This document shows positions 24,888-31,414 of a DNA stretch of 37,441 nucleotides, in pieces (the first letter of the stretch is position 1; each line of letters opens with the position of its first letter). The DNA is from Bacilli bacterium (GTDB lineage: Bacteria > Bacillota_I > Bacilli_A > RF39 > UBA660): positions 1 through 37,441 of the forward strand of contig JAQUUG010000002.1 of assembly GCA_028693965.1 (NCBI GenBank), read 5' to 3'. Under the pieces are notes generated by a model that saw only the letters and a program-made list of their open reading frames with translations, had not been told where the DNA came from and did not search any database. A program made the translations under genes and the position numbers.

Positions 24888-25619
24888 ATGTTTATTAAGG
24901 AAGTGATTATATTGTATAAAAATGTATTTGATCGTGTTGAAAAAAAATATTTACTTAAAACAGATAAATATGATGAATTAATTAAACTATTAAGTAATTA
25001 TATGGTTTTAGATGAATATGGCAGTTATACAATAAATAATATATATTTAGATACTGATAATTTTGATTTAATAAGAAGTTCTTTAGAAAAACCGATTTAC
25101 AAAGAAAAAATGAGACTAAGAAGTTATAATCAAACAAATCTTGATAGTAAAGTTTTTTTGGAAATAAAGAAAAAATATAAAGGAATTGTTAATAAAAGGC
25201 GGATTAGTTTAAAGCTAGAAGATGCTAATAAATGGATAGACAGTTATTATAACGGTAATAGTGATTCACAGATCAGTAAAGAAATTACATATTTTATGAA
25301 ACTTTATCAAGTTAAAAGGAAAATATTTATAGCTTATGATCGCACAGCTTATTATAATAGTGAATATGATTTGCGCATTACTTTTGATACTAATATTAGA
25401 AGTAGGGAAACTGATTTATATTTAGAAGCTGGAAATCAGGGAATTCTTTATTTCAAAGAACCTACTTATTTAATGGAAATAAAATGTAATGGTGCAATGC
25501 CGTTATGGTTAACTCAAATTTTATCAGAATTATGTATATATCCTCAATCATTTTCTAAATATGGTAATTTTTATAAACAAAAATTATTGAAAGAAATGGA
25601 GTGTAGAAACAATGTTTAA
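24888..25619 (+). CDS. VTC-domain (polyphosphate polymerase-like, CYTH-fold) protein
   Basis: FDRVEKKYLL, MRLRSYNQ...VFLEIKKKYKGIVNKRR and YDRTAY follow the VTC domain pattern. TTG 24912, after AAGGAAG, may be the real start. Confidence 0.7.
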   Translation: MFIKEVIILYKNVFDRVEKKYLLKTDKYDELIKLLSNYMVLDEYGSYTINNIYLDTDNFDLIRSSLEKPIYKEKMRLRSYNQTNLDSKVFLEIKKKYKGIVNKRRISLKLEDANKWIDSYYNGNSDSQISKEITYFMKLYQVKRKIFIAYDRTAYYNSEYDLRITFDTNIRSRETDLYLEAGNQGILYFKEPTYLMEIKCNGAMPLWLTQILSELCIYPQSFSKYGNFYKQKLLKEMECRNNV

Positions 25620-26283
25620 AAGTATTTTATCGGACGTTACAGGGACGCTAGCAATTAGTGATGGACTTATCTGTATTATATCGTCATTGGTATTAGGAAT
25701 TATTATTGCCTTTGTTCATATGCATAGTCAAAGGTATACCAAAAATTTTATTATCTCTTTAGCTCTTTTACCGGTTTTAGTTCAAGTTGTAATTATGATG
25801 GTAAATGGCAATTTAGGAACATCAATTGCGGTAATGGGAGCCTTTTCATTGATTCGTTTTAGGAGTGTTCCTGGAACTTCCAGGGAATTAATTAGTGTCT
25901 TTTTTGCAATGGCAGTTGGACTTGCTATTGGTATGGGGCATGTTATGTATGCATCAACTTTCACTGTAATATTGTCAGCGGTATTAATTATTATGAGTAA
26001 AACAACTTTTGGAGAAAGTAAAAAACATTATCAAAAACTTAAAGTCTTAATTCCTGAAAATTTAGATTACAATCATGTATTTGATGACGTTTTTAGTAAG
26101 TATACTAATCAATCTAGATTAGATAAAATTAAAACAACTAATATGGGAAGTATGTTTGAATTAACTTATATAGTGATTTTAAAAGATGGTAATGATAAAC
26201 ATTTTATTGATGATTTAAGGTGCCTTAATGGTAATTTAACAATTACTTTATCTAGTAATCTAGAAAATATTAATGAATTATAA
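25612..26283 (+). CDS. DUF4956-like membrane protein (usual partner of bacterial VTC proteins)
   Basis: 8-nt overlap with the VTC gene. Four TM helices with FSLIRFRSVPGTSRELISVFFAMAVGLAIGMG, then a soluble C-terminal domain. Confidence 0.65.
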   Translation: MFKSILSDVTGTLAISDGLICIISSLVLGIIIAFVHMHSQRYTKNFIISLALLPVLVQVVIMMVNGNLGTSIAVMGAFSLIRFRSVPGTSRELISVFFAMAVGLAIGMGHVMYASTFTVILSAVLIIMSKTTFGESKKHYQKLKVLIPENLDYNHVFDDVFSKYTNQSRLDKIKTTNMGSMFELTYIVILKDGNDKHFIDDLRCLNGNLTITLSSNLENINEL

Positions 26284-26557
26284 AATTAAAAAAATTGATA
26301 AGTAAAGTAAATCTTATAGTGGAACATTTTAAATATAAATATTAATTAAATAAAATAGTATCTTCTTTATTGATGGTGCTATTTTATTATAGGAAGAAAA
26401 GTTAGAAATTGAAATTATTTTATAAAGATATAATAATTTAAAAATCCAGCTTATAAATGGGATTATTATCTTCATTCTAATTTTTAATTTTGATTGTATT
26501 ATCAAAAAAACTTTATTATTATTTTATATGTGTTTTTGTGATTGATTAATAATTTAA

Positions 26558-26586
26558 TTGTAAAAATAAATAGATTATGATATTAT
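26558..26586 (+). promoter_or_regulatory. putative promoter TTGTAA-N17-(TGA)TATTAT
   Basis: -35 at 26558-26563, 17-nt spacer, and an extended -10 TGATATTAT ending at 26586. Just upstream of the small pilin gene. Confidence 0.4.
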
Positions 26587-26602
26587 ATAGTTATAAAAGT
26601 AG

Positions 26603-26924
26603 GTGTTAAAAAGGATTTACTTTAATTGAAATGATGGGCGTTCTTGTAATAATAGCTGTGATTGCATTGATAACAACGCCTATTATTAATTATATAATTG
26701 GTGAAATAAAAGAAAATGCTTTTAAAAATAGTTTATATAGTGTTTTTAGAAGCACAGAATATTATTATAAAGAAAACAGTTATGAAACAATACCTACTAA
26801 AGGACTAGATGTTACAAGTGATAAGATAATACTAAAAAATAAAAATGAGGATTTAGATTTAAAAAATGTCACTAATAATGTCTATTGTGGTAATGGTTAT
26901 GTTATTATAACTAAAGTCAGTTAA
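26603..26924 (+). pseudogene. small prepilin-like protein with defective start/leader
   Basis: The frame is open from 26610 and reads KGFTLIEMMGVLVIIAVIALITTPI (a perfect pilin N-terminus). No start codon precedes it in frame (TAA at 26607-26609). GTG 26603 is out of frame by one base across an A5 tract (26608-26612). Confidence 0.5.
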
Positions 26925-26942
26925 AAAACAGTTATTTATGCT

Positions 26943-26974
26943 TAAAAGAACATATCATTAGATATGTTCTTTCA
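26943..26974. terminator. bidirectional terminator between convergent genes
   Basis: AAAGAACATATC-ATTA-GATATGTTCTTT: a 12-bp perfect stem. Confidence 0.65.
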
Positions 26975-26983
26975 ATAGTATAT

Positions 26984-27481
26984 TTATATAGTTGCTTGTA
27001 AATAGTCAATAGTAACATCAAAATTTACACTTTCTGGATTAGCATTAGTTGATGATGCATTCCAAGTAATAACAATTGTTCCATTAGTAACTTCATTAAC
27101 ATTCAGTGTTTCACCAACAATATTAGATAATCCATTAATAACAATATTAAAGTCATCAGTACTATTGTCATTAATATTTAAATTGCTAACGGTGGCTGGT
27201 AACGAACCAGTATTTTTAATTGTGAAAGAAATACTAACGGAGTCACCAGGATATGTTAAGTCGGCATCAACAGTTAAAGATGTTTTAGTACTATCTAGCG
27301 ATGCTGTAGCCTTCGCATCATCTGATATACTAAAACTACTAAATTCAATCTTAAAATCACCAGTTCCTGAAGCTGTACCAGAAATATTTAAATTCGCAGC
27401 TAATAAAGCATAAACTCCGGTTAAAGCTAAAGTAAAGAGTAGAAGCCCGACTAATACCATTTTGTTTTTTTTCTTGTTCAA
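26984..27481 (-). CDS. secreted S/T/N-rich beta-type protein, candidate SipW substrate (TasA/camelysin-like role, homology unverified)
   Basis: TTG start after RBS AAGGTGGTGA. K-rich n-region, hydrophobic core, then VYALLAANLNISGTASG. The mature ~135 aa has alternating polar/hydrophobic beta-strand character. Confidence 0.6.
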   Translation of the reverse strand: MNKKKNKMVLVGLLLFTLALTGVYALLAANLNISGTASGTGDFKIEFSSFSISDDAKATASLDSTKTSLTVDADLTYPGDSVSISFTIKNTGSLPATVSNLNINDNSTDDFNIVINGLSNIVGETLNVNEVTNGTIVITWNASSTNANPESVNFDVTIDYLQATI

Positions 27482-27622
27482 AATATCACCACCTTATAAA
27501 TACATTATTAGTATACCTTTAATAAAAATATTTAAACTCATATTTCCAAACAGCCAAAAATTACTAATTAGTATAATATTAAGCTATTAAATCATAATAA
27601 TAATGATGTGGTATGTGATAAA

Positions 27623-28420
27623 ATGAGAAGAAAAAGAAAAACAAAAATAATTTTAATAATAGTTTTAATATTAACAATGAGTCAAGTTGCTTATGCTTAT
27701 CTTAAAACGTCTTTAAACATTACAGGGCAGGTAGGTGGTAATTATGACGATTCTTATGTTTTGGACAATAATAGTACAAAAGATTTAACAATAACTAATT
27801 TAGAAGTTAATAGTTGGCAAAATGGTAATATTTATTATTATCAATATACTTTTAATGTAAATAATGTCAGTTCCATTGATTACGATAATTTTAAATTACT
27901 GCTTAATTTCAGTGCTGATGTGTTGGTTACAAATATATGGAATTATAGCTATGAGGAAGAAGGAAGTTCTATAACTATTATTAACAATAGCTATGATTTA
28001 AATACTAATAATACTTTAATTGTTTCTTTTATATTACAAACTTCAGTATCTAATTTAAAACTAATAAAAATTAAAATAAGTGCTAACAAAGATACTAATT
28101 TAGTAACTTCTGATCAAATGCAAGTAACGTTTAATAAGACTAATAGTTGGGGAACTTATACATATCAGTATGAGGTTATCATTACTAATAATAGCGGCAA
28201 TAAAATTACTTATTGGCAAATTGAACTGATTTTACCAAACACTACTATTTTTAAAAGTGGCTGGGGTGCTACATACGAAATGAATAATAGTGTTTTAACT
28301 ATTAAAAATGCTAGTTATAACGGCCGAATAGAAAACAAATCTTCTGTTACAATTGGTTTGCAATTAACCACTACTGATGTTAATTTTAAACCAAGTAACT
28401 ATAGTGTTTTAATTAGGTGA
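27623..28420 (+). CDS. secreted protein with two tandem CBM2-like beta-sandwich modules and the same signal-peptide motif
   Basis: MRRKRKTKIILIIVLILTMSQVAYAYLKTSLNITGQVGG. Each module shows the CBM2-type pattern (SW..Y.YQY...I.N.S...I..W.I.L.....I...W.A.Y......L.I.N..YN..I....S..IG). Confidence 0.55.
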   Translation: MRRKRKTKIILIIVLILTMSQVAYAYLKTSLNITGQVGGNYDDSYVLDNNSTKDLTITNLEVNSWQNGNIYYYQYTFNVNNVSSIDYDNFKLLLNFSADVLVTNIWNYSYEEEGSSITIINNSYDLNTNNTLIVSFILQTSVSNLKLIKIKISANKDTNLVTSDQMQVTFNKTNSWGTYTYQYEVIITNNSGNKITYWQIELILPNTTIFKSGWGATYEMNNSVLTIKNASYNGRIENKSSVTIGLQLTTTDVNFKPSNYSVLIR

Positions 28421-28424
28421 TAAA

Positions 28425-29567
28425 ATGAAAAACAAATTATATTTAGTTGGATTATTTTTATATGTTATTTGCTATAAACTATTAATAAATAATTCAAATT
28501 ATTTTTTTATTTATATTATAAATCCTACTATTTGGCTTATTTTAAGCACTTATATCTTTTTTCATAATAAAGATATTTATTATAAATATCAAAAGCAAAT
28601 TATTTATCTTCTTTTTATTATAGCTACTATTTATAATTTAATTTATTATGGGCTAGGATTTATTTTTGGATATGCTAACAATGCTTATGATACTAGTTTA
28701 GAAGGAATTATTATTAATCTATTTAGTCTTGTTATAGTTGCTTTTTGTAAGGAATATATTAGAGCTTTTTTAATAAATAGTATATTTAGAAACAAATTTT
28801 TTTACTATTTCTTAATAACTATCTTTTTTATTATAAGTGATTTAAATATTCAAACTATATATAGTGATATAACAGATAAAAGTGATATATTTATTGTTTT
28901 TTTAGAAAATGTTACACCTAGTCTTACTTATAATTTTTTAGCGCTTTTTCTAATTATTCACGGTGGAATTTGGTCAAGTTTTATATATAAATGTTCTTTT
29001 ATTATTCCTAGTTTAATAATAAATATTACGCCTAAGTATGAACTTATGGAAACAACGATATTTAATGTTTTAACTCCTGTTTTTACATATTTATATATTA
29101 ATTATAATATTGAAAAAAAGAAAAAAGATTCTAAAAGATATATTGAATCTCCTAAAAAATGGATACTCATTTTTTCATTGTCTTTAGTATTATTACTCTT
29201 TTTTTTAGGTGTTTATCCAGTTAAACCTGTAGTTATATTATCAGCTAGTATGAAACCTAGTATAAAAGAAGGTGATTTAGTTATTGTTACACCTTGTGAT
29301 ATAACTAATATTAAAGAAGGCACTATTATTCTTTACAAATTAAATAATTATCAAGTTTTACACCGTGTTGTTGATGTTATTAATAGCGAGGAGGGAATAA
29401 AACTAGTTACTAAAGGAGATAATAATAACAAAAAAGATAGTGGTAGTATTTCAGAATCAAATATAATAGGGTGTTATCAATTTCGAATCCCTTATTTGGG
29501 ATATCCATCTTATTTATGGCATAAATTTTTTCAAAATCAGGAAGTTGATGTAGAAATTGGTGATTAG
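28425..29567 (+). CDS. SipW-type (ER/archaeal-type) signal peptidase I with ~260-aa polytopic N-terminal extension
   Basis: RBS AGGTGA overlaps the upstream stop. The C-terminal ~115 aa carry SASMKPSIKEGD (Ser nucleophile box, nt 29241-29258), VLHRVV (His box) and KGDNNNKKD. They are preceded by about 8 predicted TM helices plus the canonical anchor. Confidence 0.75.
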   Translation: MKNKLYLVGLFLYVICYKLLINNSNYFFIYIINPTIWLILSTYIFFHNKDIYYKYQKQIIYLLFIIATIYNLIYYGLGFIFGYANNAYDTSLEGIIINLFSLVIVAFCKEYIRAFLINSIFRNKFFYYFLITIFFIISDLNIQTIYSDITDKSDIFIVFLENVTPSLTYNFLALFLIIHGGIWSSFIYKCSFIIPSLIINITPKYELMETTIFNVLTPVFTYLYINYNIEKKKKDSKRYIESPKKWILIFSLSLVLLLFFLGVYPVKPVVILSASMKPSIKEGDLVIVTPCDITNIKEGTIILYKLNNYQVLHRVVDVINSEEGIKLVTKGDNNNKKDSGSISESNIIGCYQFRIPYLGYPSYLWHKFFQNQEVDVEIGD

Positions 29568-29578
29568 GTGGTGATATT

Positions 29579-30619
29579 TTGAAAAAAAATGACAAGTACC
29601 GCATTATAATTTTATTGTGTACTGTCTTTTTAATAGCTATTTTATTACTATTAAATGTTTTTTTTAGTATCAAAAAATTATGGTTTCGTAGTGTTTTATA
29701 TCAGGGCAATATAACTCATAATATGAATTATGAAGTACATATTTTTGAAAATAATTATATTGAAAATGATGTAATAACTAATAACTATTCTTTTATTACG
29801 GATTTAGTAGATTACCTTGTTTTAAATTATAATTATACATATAACTTTAATAAAACGATGAATCTAAACTATTCATATGTAATAAAAGCTAATGTTATTA
29901 GTAATGATGAAGAAAATAGTACTAATCCGGTCCTAAATAAGGAATATATTTTATTTTCAAGTGATAATAAGGAAATCTTTTCTAATACTATTAATATTAA
30001 TGAAAGTACCAGTCTTAGTTTAATAGAATATAATGATTTAATAAATAATTTTATCGAAGATTTTAATCTTTCTTTAACTAGTGTATTAGAAGTGAAGTTA
30101 ATTGTTAATATTGAAGGTGATATCAATGATAATAATATTAATAAGGAACATTATCTTCTTTTTTCTATTCCTCTTGATGCTAAGACTTTTGATATTACAA
30201 CTTCAACTAATTTTACCAAAGAAGAAAAAATTTATAAAAGTGAAGATATTGATGAAAAGGAAATATATGTTGATATCATTATAAATATCTTGGTTTTATC
30301 AATTTTAGTAGGATGTAGTTACTATATTACTAAACATATTTTAGATAAATATAATAGTAAATATCATATGGAAAAGACTAAAATATTAAAAGACTATGAT
30401 AGTATTATTGTTGAAGTTAAAAGTTTTGTTAATTACATGAAGTGGGAAACGGTAGAAGTTGAAACTTTTGAAGAATTATTGAATCTCTCAAATGAAGTTT
30501 TTGAACCTATTTTCTTTTTTGAACAAGGAACATACGCTAATAGGGAAGCTTGGTTTTGTATTTTAAGAGAAAAAGTTTTATATAAGTATGTCATTTATAA
30601 ACAAAATAGTGTAAAATAA
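29579..30619 (+). CDS. bitopic membrane protein of unknown function (N-terminal anchor, ~200-aa ectodomain, second TM, ~90-aa cytoplasmic tail)
   Basis: TTG start after RBS AGGTGGTGA, 11 nt after the peptidase stop. TM1 is IIILLCTVFLIAILLLLNVFF and TM2 is IIINILVLSILVGCSYYI. May correspond to the DUF5305 family, but that is from memory only and unverified. Confidence 0.55.
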   Translation: MKKNDKYRIIILLCTVFLIAILLLLNVFFSIKKLWFRSVLYQGNITHNMNYEVHIFENNYIENDVITNNYSFITDLVDYLVLNYNYTYNFNKTMNLNYSYVIKANVISNDEENSTNPVLNKEYILFSSDNKEIFSNTININESTSLSLIEYNDLINNFIEDFNLSLTSVLEVKLIVNIEGDINDNNINKEHYLLFSIPLDAKTFDITTSTNFTKEEKIYKSEDIDEKEIYVDIIINILVLSILVGCSYYITKHILDKYNSKYHMEKTKILKDYDSIIVEVKSFVNYMKWETVEVETFEELLNLSNEVFEPIFFFEQGTYANREAWFCILREKVLYKYVIYKQNSVK

Positions 30620-30650
30620 AGATATAAGTTAATCTTAGAAAGTCGCATGA

Positions 30651-30776
30651 AAAGTTTTGAAGACATATTTATTGAATAATGGAACAGTAAAGGCTACAAA
30701 ATCTAATACTTATGGTCAATTAGACGATGGCACAAAAGTTAATAAAACAACCTCTGTTGATATTATGTTTAAATGA
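30651..30776 (+). pseudogene. RCC1-repeat-like gene fragment
   Basis: A 41-codon open frame with no start reads KVLKTYLLNNGTVKATKSNTYGQLDDGTKVNKTTSVDIMFK. The G.V.a.G.N.YGQLGDGT pattern is recognisable. Confidence 0.3.
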
Positions 30777-30895
30777 GTGCATTTCAATAAGTAATGAAAG
30801 ACAAAATTTAATAAAGTGTAAATAAAAAATGTAAAGTTGTAATAGCTTAACATTTTTGTTATAATTAGTTATATCATTGGATATAGGAGGCAGTT

Positions 30896-31414
30896 ATGGA
30901 TAAATATATTCCAGATATATACCAGCAAAGTATATATACGATTGATTATCAAAAATTAAAAGATTGCGGTATTAAATGTTTATTATTTGATTTGGATAAC
31001 ACTTTAGTACCTGCTAAAATAGATGAACCAACTAAGAAAGTAAATGAATTATTTAAAGAACTTAAAAAAGATTTTAAAGTGATTATTTTTTCTAATTCTC
31101 ATAAGAGAAGAGTATCAACTTTTAGTGAAAAATTAAAGGTAGATTTTTATCATTCAGCTTGTAAACCTTTCACAAAAAATTTTAAAAAGGTCATAACTAA
31201 TAATGATTATAATATTAGTGAAGTTGCTATTATTGGAGATCAAGTTTTGACAGATATTATTGGTGGTAATAAAGTTGGAATAACGACTATTTTAATTAAT
31301 CCTGTTAGTCCTATAGACAGTTTTTTTACTAAAATTAATAGACATATTGAAAAAATCATTATTAATAAACTAACTAGTCGTAATTTATTTTTTAAGGGTC
31401 ATTATTATGAATAA
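30896..31414 (+). CDS. yqeG: YqeG-family HAD-IIIA phosphatase
   Basis: LLFDLDNTLVP, IIFSNS and GDQVLTDIIGGN motifs. RBS AGGAGG. Extended -10 TGTTATAAT at 30857-30865. Followed by yqeH, as in Bacillus. Confidence 0.85.
   Translation: MDKYIPDIYQQSIYTIDYQKLKDCGIKCLLFDLDNTLVPAKIDEPTKKVNELFKELKKDFKVIIFSNSHKRRVSTFSEKLKVDFYHSACKPFTKNFKKVITNNDYNISEVAIIGDQVLTDIIGGNKVGITTILINPVSPIDSFFTKINRHIEKIIINKLTSRNLFFKGHYYE

What the first reader, a model, noticed from the sequence alone, without database searches (positions are those of the whole stretch)
28425..29567. SipW-type signal peptidase with a ~260-aa, roughly eight-helix N-terminal membrane domain
Seen: the catalytic boxes SASMKPSIKEGD, VLHRVV and KGDNNN occupy only the last ~115 residues. 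They are preceded by the usual anchor helix (WILIFSLSLVLLLFFLGV) and, before that, about 245 aa of very hydrophobic sequence with about eight predicted helices and no motif I recognise.

Established: B. subtilis SipW and archaeal/ER-type SPases are roughly 180-200 aa with one or two TM segments.

Inference: the extension may form a substrate-docking or translocation/assembly platform, analogous in concept to sortase- or rhombosortase-like polytopic processing enzymes.
Basis: partly seen in the sequence, partly recalled or inferred. Interest (0 to 1): 0.7.

Follow-up and report, generated by a model that had tools for sequence, protein, structure and literature searches.

The report
Many-helix signal peptidase of a fibre locus
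This gene is a real, intact signal peptidase fused to a large membrane domain of unknown fold; it belongs to a widespread family that sits in operons for TasA/AbpX-type biofilm fibres, and a 2026 preprint has already noted the architecture without studying it.

Summary
ORF 28425-29567 (+) encodes 380 aa. Residues ~246-364 are an ER/archaeal-type (S26B, TIGR02228) signal peptidase with Ser275, His313, Asp332 and Asp338. Residues 1-245 form eight confidently modelled membrane helices.

The fusion is not an assembly error. An N-domain profile finds 1660 50%-identity clusters, and the full-length ones inspected all carry the peptidase. The domain has no Pfam, NCBIfam or PDB sequence match and no reproducible PDB fold match. 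Five residues are about as conserved as the catalytic ones: G78, N98, E110, R113 and P203.

Context explains the gene. In 80 genomes (Bacillota, Chloroflexota) the long peptidase usually lies next to AbpX/TasA-like subunits that share an N-terminal "GYA|xF..LxINGT" signal and donor-strand module. A DUF5305 gene lies directly downstream in 63 of 80. The window has all of these.

bioRxiv 10.64898/2026.01.04.697558 already states that AbpX-associated SPase I has ten TM helices and a DUF5305 accessory. This is therefore a new member of a barely described kind.

The docking-platform idea is plausible but untested, and kinship with sortase, exosortase or CPBP families is not supported.

The parts
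28425..29567 (+). Gene for the long-form ER/archaeal-type signal peptidase I (380 aa)
   Evidence: ORF. TIGR02228 at E 1.2e-27. 21 same-length homologues. Best PDB sequence match is SEC11C/SEC11A at 1e-25.
28425..29159 (+). N-terminal polytopic domain, aa 1-245: eight TM helices, N-terminus in the cytoplasm; uncatalogued family
   Evidence: AF2 helices. The positive-inside charge pattern over 159 sequences gives N-in and loops 3-4, 5-6 and 7-8 outside. No Pfam, NCBIfam or PDB match. The profile finds 1660 clusters.
28752..28763 (+). Codons for E110..R113, the near-invariant E-x-x-R in the cytoplasmic half of TM4
   Evidence: E110 and R113 each occur in 99% of 159 diverse members and are nearly invariant.
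28656..28718 (+). Outer-face conserved patch 1: G78, G82, (F)xxN-P-Y88 loop and N98 at the outer end of TM4
   Evidence: Frequencies are G78 0.99, G82 0.86, Y88 0.87 and N98 0.98. Loop 82-91 is placed outside by charge bias.
29022..29045 (+). Outer-face conserved patch 2: loop 7-8, consensus P-I-x-P-x-x-x-W (window: N200-I-T-P203-K-Y-E-L207)
   Evidence: Frequencies are P203 0.99, P200 0.94 (N in the window) and W207 0.74 (L in the window). AF2 models a short strand at 201-203 and another at 83-85.
29151..29204 (+). TM9, the classical signal-anchor helix of the peptidase (aa 243-260), preceded by the Lys-rich cytoplasmic loop
   Evidence: AF2 helix 243-260. Loop 8-9 has net charge +2.0.
29220..29516 (+). 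Extracytoplasmic catalytic domain (aa 266-364) with Ser275, His313, Asp332 and Asp338
   Evidence: These columns are invariant. Foldseek top hits are human SEC11C/A, 7p2q and 7p2p.
29579..30619 (+). DUF5305 membrane protein, putative peptidase accessory subunit, 11 nt downstream
   Evidence: Pfam DUF5305 at 2.9e-17. It is directly downstream on the same strand in 63 of 80 long-peptidase genes, median gap 11 nt. The literature proposes it as an SPase I accessory.
27608..28420 (+). 270-aa secreted protein with the same signal and donor-strand module (..VAYA|YLKTSLNITG..) and CBM2-like beta-sandwich domains; probable minor or tip subunit. The likelier start is the ATG at 27623.
   Evidence: Sequence. 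CBM_2 at 2.5e-15. Homologues occupy the same position in L029, L037 and L043. It is fused in frame to the peptidase in P0027.
26984..27481 (-). 165-aa AbpX/TasA-superfamily fibre subunit, predicted cleavage VYA|LLAANLNISGT; mature pI 4.05
   Evidence: Homologues lie within 2.5 kb of 66 of 80 long peptidases. The family profile hits AbpX in PDB (9sj2 at 1.2e-5, 9rhp at 3.5e-5) ahead of TasA (8aur at 0.077). Peptidase_M73 hits occur in 8 of 34 members. pI.

Best explanation
The gene encodes the dedicated signal peptidase of an AbpX/TasA-superfamily donor-strand-exchange fibre (biofilm matrix) operon.

Shown: the C-terminal 115 residues are an intact ER/archaeal-type Ser-His-Asp signal peptidase facing outward. 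The N-terminal 245 residues are a conserved eight-helix membrane domain that, in every full-length homologue retrieved, occurs fused to this peptidase. The gene is flanked by fibre subunits that share one N-terminal module, and by a DUF5305 membrane protein.

Inferred: the subunits are exported by Sec and stay tethered by their signal-anchor. The peptidase cuts after the small-aromatic-small motif (G/A-Y-A|). This frees the new N-terminus (x-F/L-x-x-x-L-x-I-N-G-T) as the donor strand that inserts into the next subunit.

The eight-helix domain is most likely non-catalytic. It would act as a built-in membrane scaffold that holds the substrate's signal-anchor helix and positions the cleavage site at the active site. 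Two conserved outer-face loops (G78..NPY88, N98 and PIxPxxxW) would sit beside the catalytic domain. The E110-x-x-R113 pair in the inner leaflet would lie near the Lys/Arg-rich start of the signal peptide. On this reading the domain does in one chain, together with DUF5305, what the non-catalytic subunits do for SEC11 in the eukaryotic signal peptidase complex.
For: Peptidase identity rests.

The fusion is conserved and exclusive. Searches show that all N-domain profile hits with Pfam data carry S26 and are 378-444 aa. Of the 192 proteins retrieved, 159 are 360-430 aa. The ten sequences of other length that were read are nine broken-off or frameshifted copies and one fusion to the upstream gene.

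The operon is conserved. A DUF5305 gene is directly downstream in 63 of 80 long-peptidase genes, and AbpX-like genes lie within 2.5 kb of 66 of 80.

The subunit family matches AbpX, then TasA, in PDB.

The shared N-terminal module appears in 75 proteins of 48 loci, including large 290-630 aa proteins. [quoted passage not shown]

The domain has no conserved Ser, Cys, His or Asp that could form a known catalytic set.

Literature: a ten-TM SPase I plus DUF5305 is reported in AbpX loci, with the SPC analogy drawn for DUF5305. TafD peptidase is required for processing of the fibre subunit in Haloarcula. A model in which TasA-like BsaA stays membrane-anchored until SipW cleaves is given.
Against: No experiment or complex model links the N-domain to substrate binding, and I could not inspect model coordinates or PAE.

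Near-invariant E, R and N inside the membrane are more typical of an active site or transport site than of a passive scaffold.

DUF5305 also pairs with the differently built four-TM TafD peptidase, so the N-domain is not needed for that partnership. Classical TasA/SipW systems manage with a short peptidase.

A check for co-variation between the outer-face motif and the substrate P2' residue gave only a clade-confounded hint.

I count nine TM helices in this protein, not the ten stated in the preprint. Homology to the P. abyssi enzyme itself was not tested.
Confidence: 0.55

Rival explanations
1. The N-domain is an assembly platform rather than a substrate dock. Together with DUF5305 it would hold the base of the growing fibre, or the next subunit, at the membrane. 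It would couple cleavage to donor-strand insertion and so act as a polymerisation machine analogous to an usher or pilus-specific sortase.
For: The three-gene cassette is tightly conserved. The conserved outer-face loops include two short predicted strands, 83-85 and 201-203, that could pair with a donor strand. The C. perfringens model has oligomers membrane-anchored until SipW cleaves. One metagenomic protein fuses the CBM2-like subunit to the peptidase (P0027).
Against: Recombinant AbpX polymerises without any chaperone or machine when calcium is present (abstract and text). The P. abyssi locus has only the subunit and the peptidase. There is no direct evidence here.
Confidence: 0.2
2. The N-domain is a second enzyme: a divergent glutamate-dependent intramembrane hydrolase of the CPBP/Rce1 fold. 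It would clear the cleaved signal peptide or make a second cut.
For: It has eight TM helices with both ends in the cytoplasm and a near-invariant E-x-x-R in the cytoplasmic half of TM4, where Rce1-type enzymes carry EExxxR (my recollection of that family). The full-length model hit Rce1 4cad_C at Foldseek probability 0.92, TM 0.49 by target, over 271 columns. The residues are as conserved as catalytic ones.
Against: The Rce1 hit has E 0.18 and is absent from the 50 matches listed (of 144) when the N-domain model is searched alone, where the best E is 1.1. No member matches Pfam PF02517 or any CPBP NCBIfam model even at E<=1. The spacing is E-x-x-R, not EE-x-x-x-R. There is no conserved His or His/Asn motif in later helices.
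Confidence: 0.1
3. The N-domain has a general membrane role unrelated to the substrate. Possibilities are stabilising or oligomerising the peptidase, localising it, thinning the bilayer, or sensing or regulating.
For: No substrate-linked signal was found. The fold has no known relatives. Polytopic partners that merely orient single-pass hydrolases are known in Gram-positives, for example SpdC with SagB (from memory).
Against: The domain is strictly co-inherited with one particular class of substrates and with DUF5305. Its strongest conservation is on the face that carries the active site.
Confidence: 0.14
4. The long ORF is an artefact: two genes joined by a frameshift or a lost stop codon.
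For: None, beyond the unusual length.
Against: The same continuous architecture occurs in hundreds of independent assemblies from several phyla, including isolate genomes of Lachnoanaerobaculum, Filifactor villosus, Peptostreptococcus canis and Bellilinea caldifistulae.
Confidence: 0.01

Closest known systems
Ten-TM SPase I of AbpX loci (bioRxiv 10.64898/2026.01.04.697558; P. abyssi WP_338249487.1)
   Same: It is a TIGR02228-type peptidase with a many-helix membrane extension. It is encoded beside AbpX-like TasA-superfamily subunits and a DUF5305 protein, and the preprint reports it in Bacillota and Chloroflexota as well as archaea. All of these features were found here.
   Different: I count nine TM helices, not ten. 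The window's subunits lack the aromatic position-2 and acidic position-4 donor-strand residues emphasised for AbpX (VYA|LLAAN). Direct sequence comparison with the archaeal enzyme was not possible. The preprint gives one sentence and no analysis of the domain.
Bacillus subtilis SipW (tapA-sipW-tasA operon)
   Same: It is an ER-type Ser/His signal peptidase dedicated to TasA-family fibre subunits, and its cleavage after small-aromatic-small (TWA|AF, from memory) parallels GYA|AF here. The SipW model NF046067 matches the catalytic part at 5e-20.
   Different: SipW is about 190 aa with one N-terminal and one C-terminal TM helix (from memory). Here eight extra helices precede the anchor and there is no C-terminal TM. 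The score of 71.9 is far below the SipW equivalog cutoff of 190. The partner is DUF5305, not TapA.
Eukaryotic signal peptidase complex (SEC11A/C with SPC12, SPC25, SPC22/23; PDB 7p2p, 7p2q)
   Same: The catalytic domain is the closest solved relative by sequence (1e-25) and by fold. The catalytic subunit works with extra non-catalytic membrane helices.
   Different: In the SPC the extra helices belong to separate subunits, whereas here they are fused in one chain. No homology between the N-domain and any SPC subunit was detected.
Haloarchaeal TafD/TafG (Tat-fimbriae)
   Same: It pairs a dedicated signal peptidase with a DUF5305 protein beside donor-strand fibre subunits. The peptidase was shown genetically to be needed for subunit processing.
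   Different: TafD has four TM helices and a second extracellular domain C-terminal to the peptidase, not an N-terminal eight-helix bundle. Its substrates use the Tat pathway.
CPBP/Rce1 intramembrane proteases
   Same: It has eight TM helices and a Glu/Arg motif in TM4. One weak Foldseek hit to 4cad was found.
   Different: There is no sequence-model match and no His motifs, and the fold hit is not reproducible.

Membership tests
Signal peptidase I, ER/archaeal type (MEROPS S26B; NCBIfam TIGR02228) | Matches the family model above its curated cutoff | tested here: met
   TIGR02228 scores 96.7 bits against a cutoff of 51.85, E 1.2e-27, over residues 249-364. Pfam Peptidase_S26 scores 26.8 against 22.9.
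Signal peptidase I, ER/archaeal type (MEROPS S26B; NCBIfam TIGR02228) | Catalytic Ser in the S-x-S-M box, His (not Lys) in the H-R box, and the G-D-N-N..D box | tested here: met
   S275, M276, H313, R314, G331, D332, N334 and D338 are invariant in 21 sequences, and S275, M276, H313, R314, G331, D332 and D338 are invariant (N334 99%) in 159. They align with SEC11C.
Signal peptidase I, ER/archaeal type (MEROPS S26B; NCBIfam TIGR02228) | Signal-anchor helix with the catalytic domain outside the membrane | tested here: met
   Helix 243-260 follows a loop with net charge +2.0. This is a prediction, not an experiment.
Signal peptidase I, ER/archaeal type (MEROPS S26B; NCBIfam TIGR02228) | Cleaves signal peptides of exported proteins | not testable with these tools
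   It needs processing assays. Predicted sites are VYA|LL (165-aa protein) and AYA|YL (270-aa protein), read.
SipW sensu stricto (NCBIfam NF046067 equivalog) | Scores above the equivalog cutoff | tested here: not met
   The score is 71.9 bits against a cutoff of 190. It is SipW-like, not a SipW orthologue.
AbpX-locus many-TM SPase I (bioRxiv 10.64898/2026.01.04.697558) | About ten TM helices instead of one or two | tested here: met
   There are nine long membrane helices plus short helices at 142-150 and 360-369. The count differs by one from the preprint's statement.
AbpX-locus many-TM SPase I (bioRxiv 10.64898/2026.01.04.697558) | Encoded next to an AbpX-like TasA-superfamily subunit | tested here: met
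   The profile of the neighbouring 165-aa family hits AbpX chains 9sj2 and 9rhp (1.2e-5, 3.5e-5) ahead of TasA at 0.077. Mature pI is 4.05. The window subunit lacks the aromatic-2 and acidic-4 donor-strand residues.
AbpX-locus many-TM SPase I (bioRxiv 10.64898/2026.01.04.697558) | DUF5305 accessory gene in the locus | tested here: met
   Pfam DUF5305 at 2.9e-17 for ORF 29579-30619. It is directly downstream in 63 of 80 homologous loci.
AbpX-locus many-TM SPase I (bioRxiv 10.64898/2026.01.04.697558) | Sequence homology of the TM domain to the P. abyssi or other archaeal enzymes | not tested
   The sequence of WP_338249487.1 was not retrievable with the tools. The 80 best genome loci are all bacterial.
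CPBP / Rce1-like intramembrane glutamic proteases (Pfam PF02517) | Match to the family model | tested here: not met
   None of 20 N-domains matches PF02517 at E<=1, and none matches a CPBP NCBIfam model.
CPBP / Rce1-like intramembrane glutamic proteases (Pfam PF02517) | Motifs EExxxR, FxxxH and HxxxN/D (as I recall them) | tested here: not met
   Only E110-x-x-R113 is conserved, and there is no conserved His anywhere in residues 1-245.
CPBP / Rce1-like intramembrane glutamic proteases (Pfam PF02517) | Rce1 fold | tested here: inconclusive
   4cad_C scores E 0.18, probability 0.92 and TM 0.49 with the full-length model. It is absent from the 50 matches listed (of 144) with the N-domain model.
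Exosortase / archaeosortase / rhombosortase-type polytopic sorting enzymes | Match to family models; conserved Cys-Arg-His (exosortase) or Ser-His (rhomboid) residues (from memory) | tested here: not met
   There is no NCBIfam hit at E<=1. There is no conserved Cys, His or Ser in the N-domain.

The most novel reading that the evidence does not exclude
The eight-helix domain is an active machine, not a passive anchor. Its near-invariant intramembrane E110, R113 and N98, with the outer-face loops, would capture the class-specific signal-anchor and hand the freshly cut donor strand to the growing fibre, or hydrolyse and clear the signal peptide. That would make this a single-chain prokaryotic counterpart of the multi-subunit signal peptidase complex, with a membrane fold not yet seen in the PDB.
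Probability: 0.2. Interest if true: 0.7.

Novelty: new member of a known kind. Interest (0 to 1): 0.35.

Why it matters
TasA/AbpX-type donor-strand fibres are emerging as a cross-domain biofilm scaffold. How their subunits are held, cut and released at the membrane is unknown. This family offers a compact handle on that question. It has more than 1600 clusters at 50% identity, reaches cultured oral and gut Bacillota and Chloroflexota, and has a confidently predicted membrane domain with five near-invariant residues that can be mutated. It also has no curated model, so the whole protein is annotated only as 'signal peptidase I'. For this particular window, however, the gene is one more ordinary member of that family.

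Tried and rejected
1. Pfam and NCBIfam scans of 20 isolated N-domains at E<=1 gave only scattered single-member noise.

2. A PDB sequence search with the N-domain profile gave zero hits at E<=10.

3. Foldseek of the N-domain model against PDB gave a best E of 1.1 and TM about 0.2, to rhodopsins, GPCRs and channels. This is generic helical-bundle noise. The Rce1 hit seen with the full-length model was not reproduced, so I do not rely on it.

4. A test for an internal 4+4 helix duplication (hhalign of residues 1-121 against 122-240) gave probability 1.4%, so there is no repeat.

5. I searched for N-domain-only proteins or other fusions. All hits carry the peptidase. The shorter entries read are broken-off or frameshifted copies. 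One 655-aa protein (P0027) fuses the upstream CBM2-like gene to the peptidase.

6. I looked for co-variation between peptidase position 207 and the substrate P2' residue. Tyr at P2' is enriched where 207 is not Trp (6 of 13 loci against 1 of 55 by my count from the table). These loci look like one clade, so this is not evidence.

7. The promoter and terminator scan of 26250-31000 was uninformative in this 20-27% GC DNA: 62 sites against 44 expected, and one terminator-like site inside a gene.

8. The sequencing-error fusion was rejected (see rivals).

9. The 87-aa antisense ORF at 29410-29673 is the kind of spurious ORF expected in AT-rich DNA. I did not analyse it further and did not pursue it.
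Full report
**1. The observation**

The ORF listing returns ORF 28425..29567 (+), ATG start, 380 aa.

Curated models match only the C-terminal third. NCBIfam TIGR02228 (sigpep_I_arch) covers residues 249-364 at E 1.2e-27, 96.7 bits against a cutoff of 51.85. Pfam Peptidase_S26 and S24 match the same part. The SipW equivalog model matches at 71.9 bits, far below its cutoff of 190. The protein is therefore SipW-like but not a SipW orthologue.

By sequence the nearest solved structures are human SEC11C and SEC11A (E 1e-25 and 4.6e-25). By fold the nearest are also these two (7p2q, 7p2p).

Nothing in Pfam or NCBIfam matches residues 1-245.

**2. The fusion is real**

A first homology search returned 21 relatives, most of them 370-406 aa and aligned over their full length.

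A profile built from residues 1-245 only (alignment A2) was run against 1.84 billion cluster representatives. It found 1660 proteins at E<=0.001, 1380 at <=1e-10 and 464 at <=1e-30. The best 150 are nearly all 370-400 aa. Of the 192 proteins retrieved in all, 159 are 360-430 aa.

I read ten sequences of other lengths. Nine shorter ones break off or frameshift inside or just before the peptidase. One 655-aa protein (P0027) is the upstream CBM2-like gene fused in frame to the peptidase.

A second, word-indexed search with the N-domain profile again returned only 378-444 aa proteins. Where a source names them, it calls them 'signal peptidase I'.

In an alignment of 159 full-length members Ser275, Met276, His313, Arg314, Gly331, Asp332 and Asp338 are invariant. 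The 'two genes joined by an error' explanation is excluded.

**3. Anatomy of the N-domain**

AlphaFold2 models are confident. The full-length model has mean pLDDT 85 and pTM 0.76. The N-domain alone has pLDDT 87 and pTM 0.84.

The helices are:
- 2-21
- 26-45
- 56-81
- 92-118
- 124-139
- a short helix at 142-150
- 155-180
- 182-198
- 207-234
- the anchor at 243-260

Two three-residue strands are predicted at 83-85 and 201-203.

Charge counts over the 159-sequence alignment follow the positive-inside rule:
- Cytoplasmic: the N-terminus (+2.0), loop 2-3 (+2.2), loop 4-5 (+1.0) and loop 8-9 (+2.0).
- Outside: loop 1-2 (+0.1), loop 3-4 (+0.5), loop 5-6 (-0.6) and loop 7-8 (-0.6).

This gives nine TM helices, N-terminus inside and catalytic domain outside.

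The conserved residues of the N-domain are about as invariant as the catalytic ones:

| Residue | Frequency |
|---|---|
| G78 | 0.99 |
| N98 | 0.98 |
| E110 | 0.99 |
| R113 | 0.99 |
| P203 | 0.99 |
| P200 | 0.94 |
| Y88 | 0.87 |
| G82 | 0.86 |
| P165 | 0.85 |

By the topology above, several of these lie on the outer face, the side of the peptidase active site. They are G78..NPY88, N98 and the P-I-x-P-x-x-x-W loop. E110-x-x-R113 lies in the cytoplasmic half of TM4.

There is no conserved His, Cys, Ser or Asp in the domain. There is also no internal 4+4 repeat (hhalign probability 1.4%).

The window's own protein departs from the consensus at three outer-face positions: A87, N200 and L207.

**4. 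Fold and family searches for the N-domain**

The PDB sequence search with the profile gave no hit at E<=10.

Foldseek with the isolated N-domain model gave a best E of 1.1 and TM about 0.2, which is noise.

With the full-length model one hit to the CAAX protease Rce1 appeared (4cad_C: E 0.18, probability 0.92, TM 0.49 by target). It did not recur with the domain alone. No member matches the Pfam or NCBIfam CPBP models. The CPBP histidine motifs are absent. I treat the CPBP link as unproven.

No exosortase, archaeosortase or rhomboid model is matched either.

**5. Context**

Scanning one genome per GTDB species gave at least 520 loci that encode a relative. The match pattern lies in the peptidase box, so short-form peptidases are not excluded from this count. 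The best 80 loci were kept. By record title they come from uncultured Clostridia, Bacilli, Oscillospiraceae, Christensenellaceae and Lachnospiraceae. Several records are labelled Muribaculaceae. Chloroflexota are also represented (Bellilinea caldifistulae, Thermanaerothrix, Anaerolineae, Dehalococcoidia). Four isolates appear: Filifactor villosus, Peptostreptococcus canis and two Lachnoanaerobaculum strains.

I called ORFs in all loci and searched them with the window's neighbours. Homologues of the 346-aa DUF5305 protein (Pfam 2.9e-17) lie directly downstream on the same strand of 63 of 80 long peptidase genes, with a median gap of 11 nt. Homologues of the 165-aa protein lie within 2.5 kb of 66 of 80, often in two to four tandem copies. 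The window's other neighbours are not conserved.

The 165-aa family carries a strikingly uniform N-terminus. It has a Lys/Arg-rich start, about 15-18 hydrophobic residues, then (V/I)-G-Y-A followed by x-(F/L/W)-x-x-x-L-x-I-N-G-T. The same module heads larger proteins (290-630 aa) in many loci. In the window it heads the 270-aa CBM2-like protein encoded immediately upstream of the peptidase (..VAYA|YLKTSLNITG..).

A profile of the small-subunit family matches AbpX in the PDB (9sj2 at 1.2e-5, 9rhp at 3.5e-5) ahead of B. subtilis TasA (8aur at 0.077). Eight of 34 members touch Pfam Peptidase_M73/camelysin. The predicted mature window subunit has pI 4.05.

**6. Literature**

The term DUF5305 occurs in only four held papers.

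The haloarchaeal Tat-fimbriae study shows genetically that the locus peptidase TafD is needed to process the fibre subunit. It proposes that the DUF5305 protein TafG works with it.

[quoted passage not shown] It places AbpX homologues in Thermoproteota, Bacillota and Chloroflexota. [quoted passage not shown] It names DUF5305 as a putative SPase I accessory subunit reminiscent of the eukaryotic complex.

The Chloroflexota subunits found here (AYA|LWSETLTINGT) reproduce that donor strand exactly if cleavage is after A-Y-A. The window's subunits (VYA|LLAAN.., AYA|YLKTS..) keep the L-x-I-x-G register but lack the aromatic and acidic pair.

The C. perfringens BsaA work proposes that TasA-like subunits stay tethered by their signal sequence until SipW cuts.

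I found no paper that analyses the many-helix domain itself.

**7. Interpretation**

Shown:
- An intact outward-facing ER-type signal peptidase.
- An eight-helix conserved domain found only in fusion with it.
- A conserved cassette of AbpX-like subunits, long peptidase and DUF5305.
- A shared N-terminal module on all putative substrates.

Inferred: the enzyme cuts after G/A-Y-A and so creates the donor strand. The N-domain is a non-catalytic scaffold that docks the signal-anchor and positions the scissile bond, with the outer-face loops next to the active site and E110/R113 near the charged start of the signal peptide. The last point is the weakest.

Near-invariant charged and polar residues inside the membrane leave room for a more active role. 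That could be an assembly machine or a signal-peptide hydrolase. DUF5305 also partners a differently built peptidase (TafD), so the N-domain is not explained by that partnership. A crude co-variation check was confounded by phylogeny.

**8. Verdict**

The gene is a new member of a kind that a 2026 preprint has already pointed out in one sentence. The membrane domain remains uncharacterised, has no curated model and has no relative in the PDB. For this window the finding is ordinary. For the family, a modest open question remains.

Noticed in passing
window 26601-26924 (+): This is a type IV prepilin-like gene (ComGC-like; NF040999 at E 0.064) whose G|FTLIE motif is directly preceded by a stop codon: '*KGFTLIEMMGVLVIIAVIALI..'. 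A GTG at 26603 is in the +1 frame. An A5 run at 26608-26612 lies between them, and one A fewer would give M-L-K-G-F-T-L-I-E. This could be a frameshift, an assembly error or phase variation. The gene lies next to the fibre locus. In C. perfringens, export of TasA-like BsaA/BsaC depends on type IV pilus genes.
   Followed up: partly
P0027 (metagenomic protein, 655 aa): A homologue of the window's 270-aa CBM2-like protein is fused in one reading frame to the long peptidase. This is either a genuine substrate-enzyme fusion or a lost stop codon. Either way it confirms the conserved gene order.
   Followed up: no
L044, L051, L052, L059, L077, L078 versus the other loci: Where peptidase position 207 is not Trp (N, D, E or K), the predicted substrates tend to have Tyr at P2' (..A|AY, A|TY). 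This holds in about 6 of 13 such loci against 1 of 55 with Trp. These loci also share I or V at position 87, so they are probably one clade. The association may be inheritance rather than co-adaptation.
   Followed up: partly
window 26984-27481 (-) and 27608-28420 (+): The window's two putative substrates lack the aromatic position-2 and acidic position-4 residues reported as conserved in AbpX donor strands (VYA|LLAAN, AYA|YLKTS). The window's peptidase is also atypical at three outer-face consensus positions (A87, N200, L207). The major subunit gene is on the opposite strand, diverging from the operon, unlike most loci.
   Followed up: partly
L044:4701-11650: One Bacilli MAG carries two copies of the long peptidase plus DUF5305 pair within 6 kb, one of them in the reversed order (DUF5305 then peptidase).
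   Followed up: no
L050, L063, L066, L069, L079 (Chloroflexota loci): The long peptidase is present, but no DUF5305 homologue was detected nearby with the window protein as query. The preprint notes that Anaerolinea thermophila fuses DUF5305 to an SPase I, so the partner may be arranged differently or be too diverged in this phylum.
   Followed up: no
window 25612-26283 (+): This DUF4956 membrane protein (Pfam 2e-14) has a weak prokaryotic-STING-domain hit (E 0.032, below cutoff). It is not conserved next to the fibre locus elsewhere.
   Followed up: no
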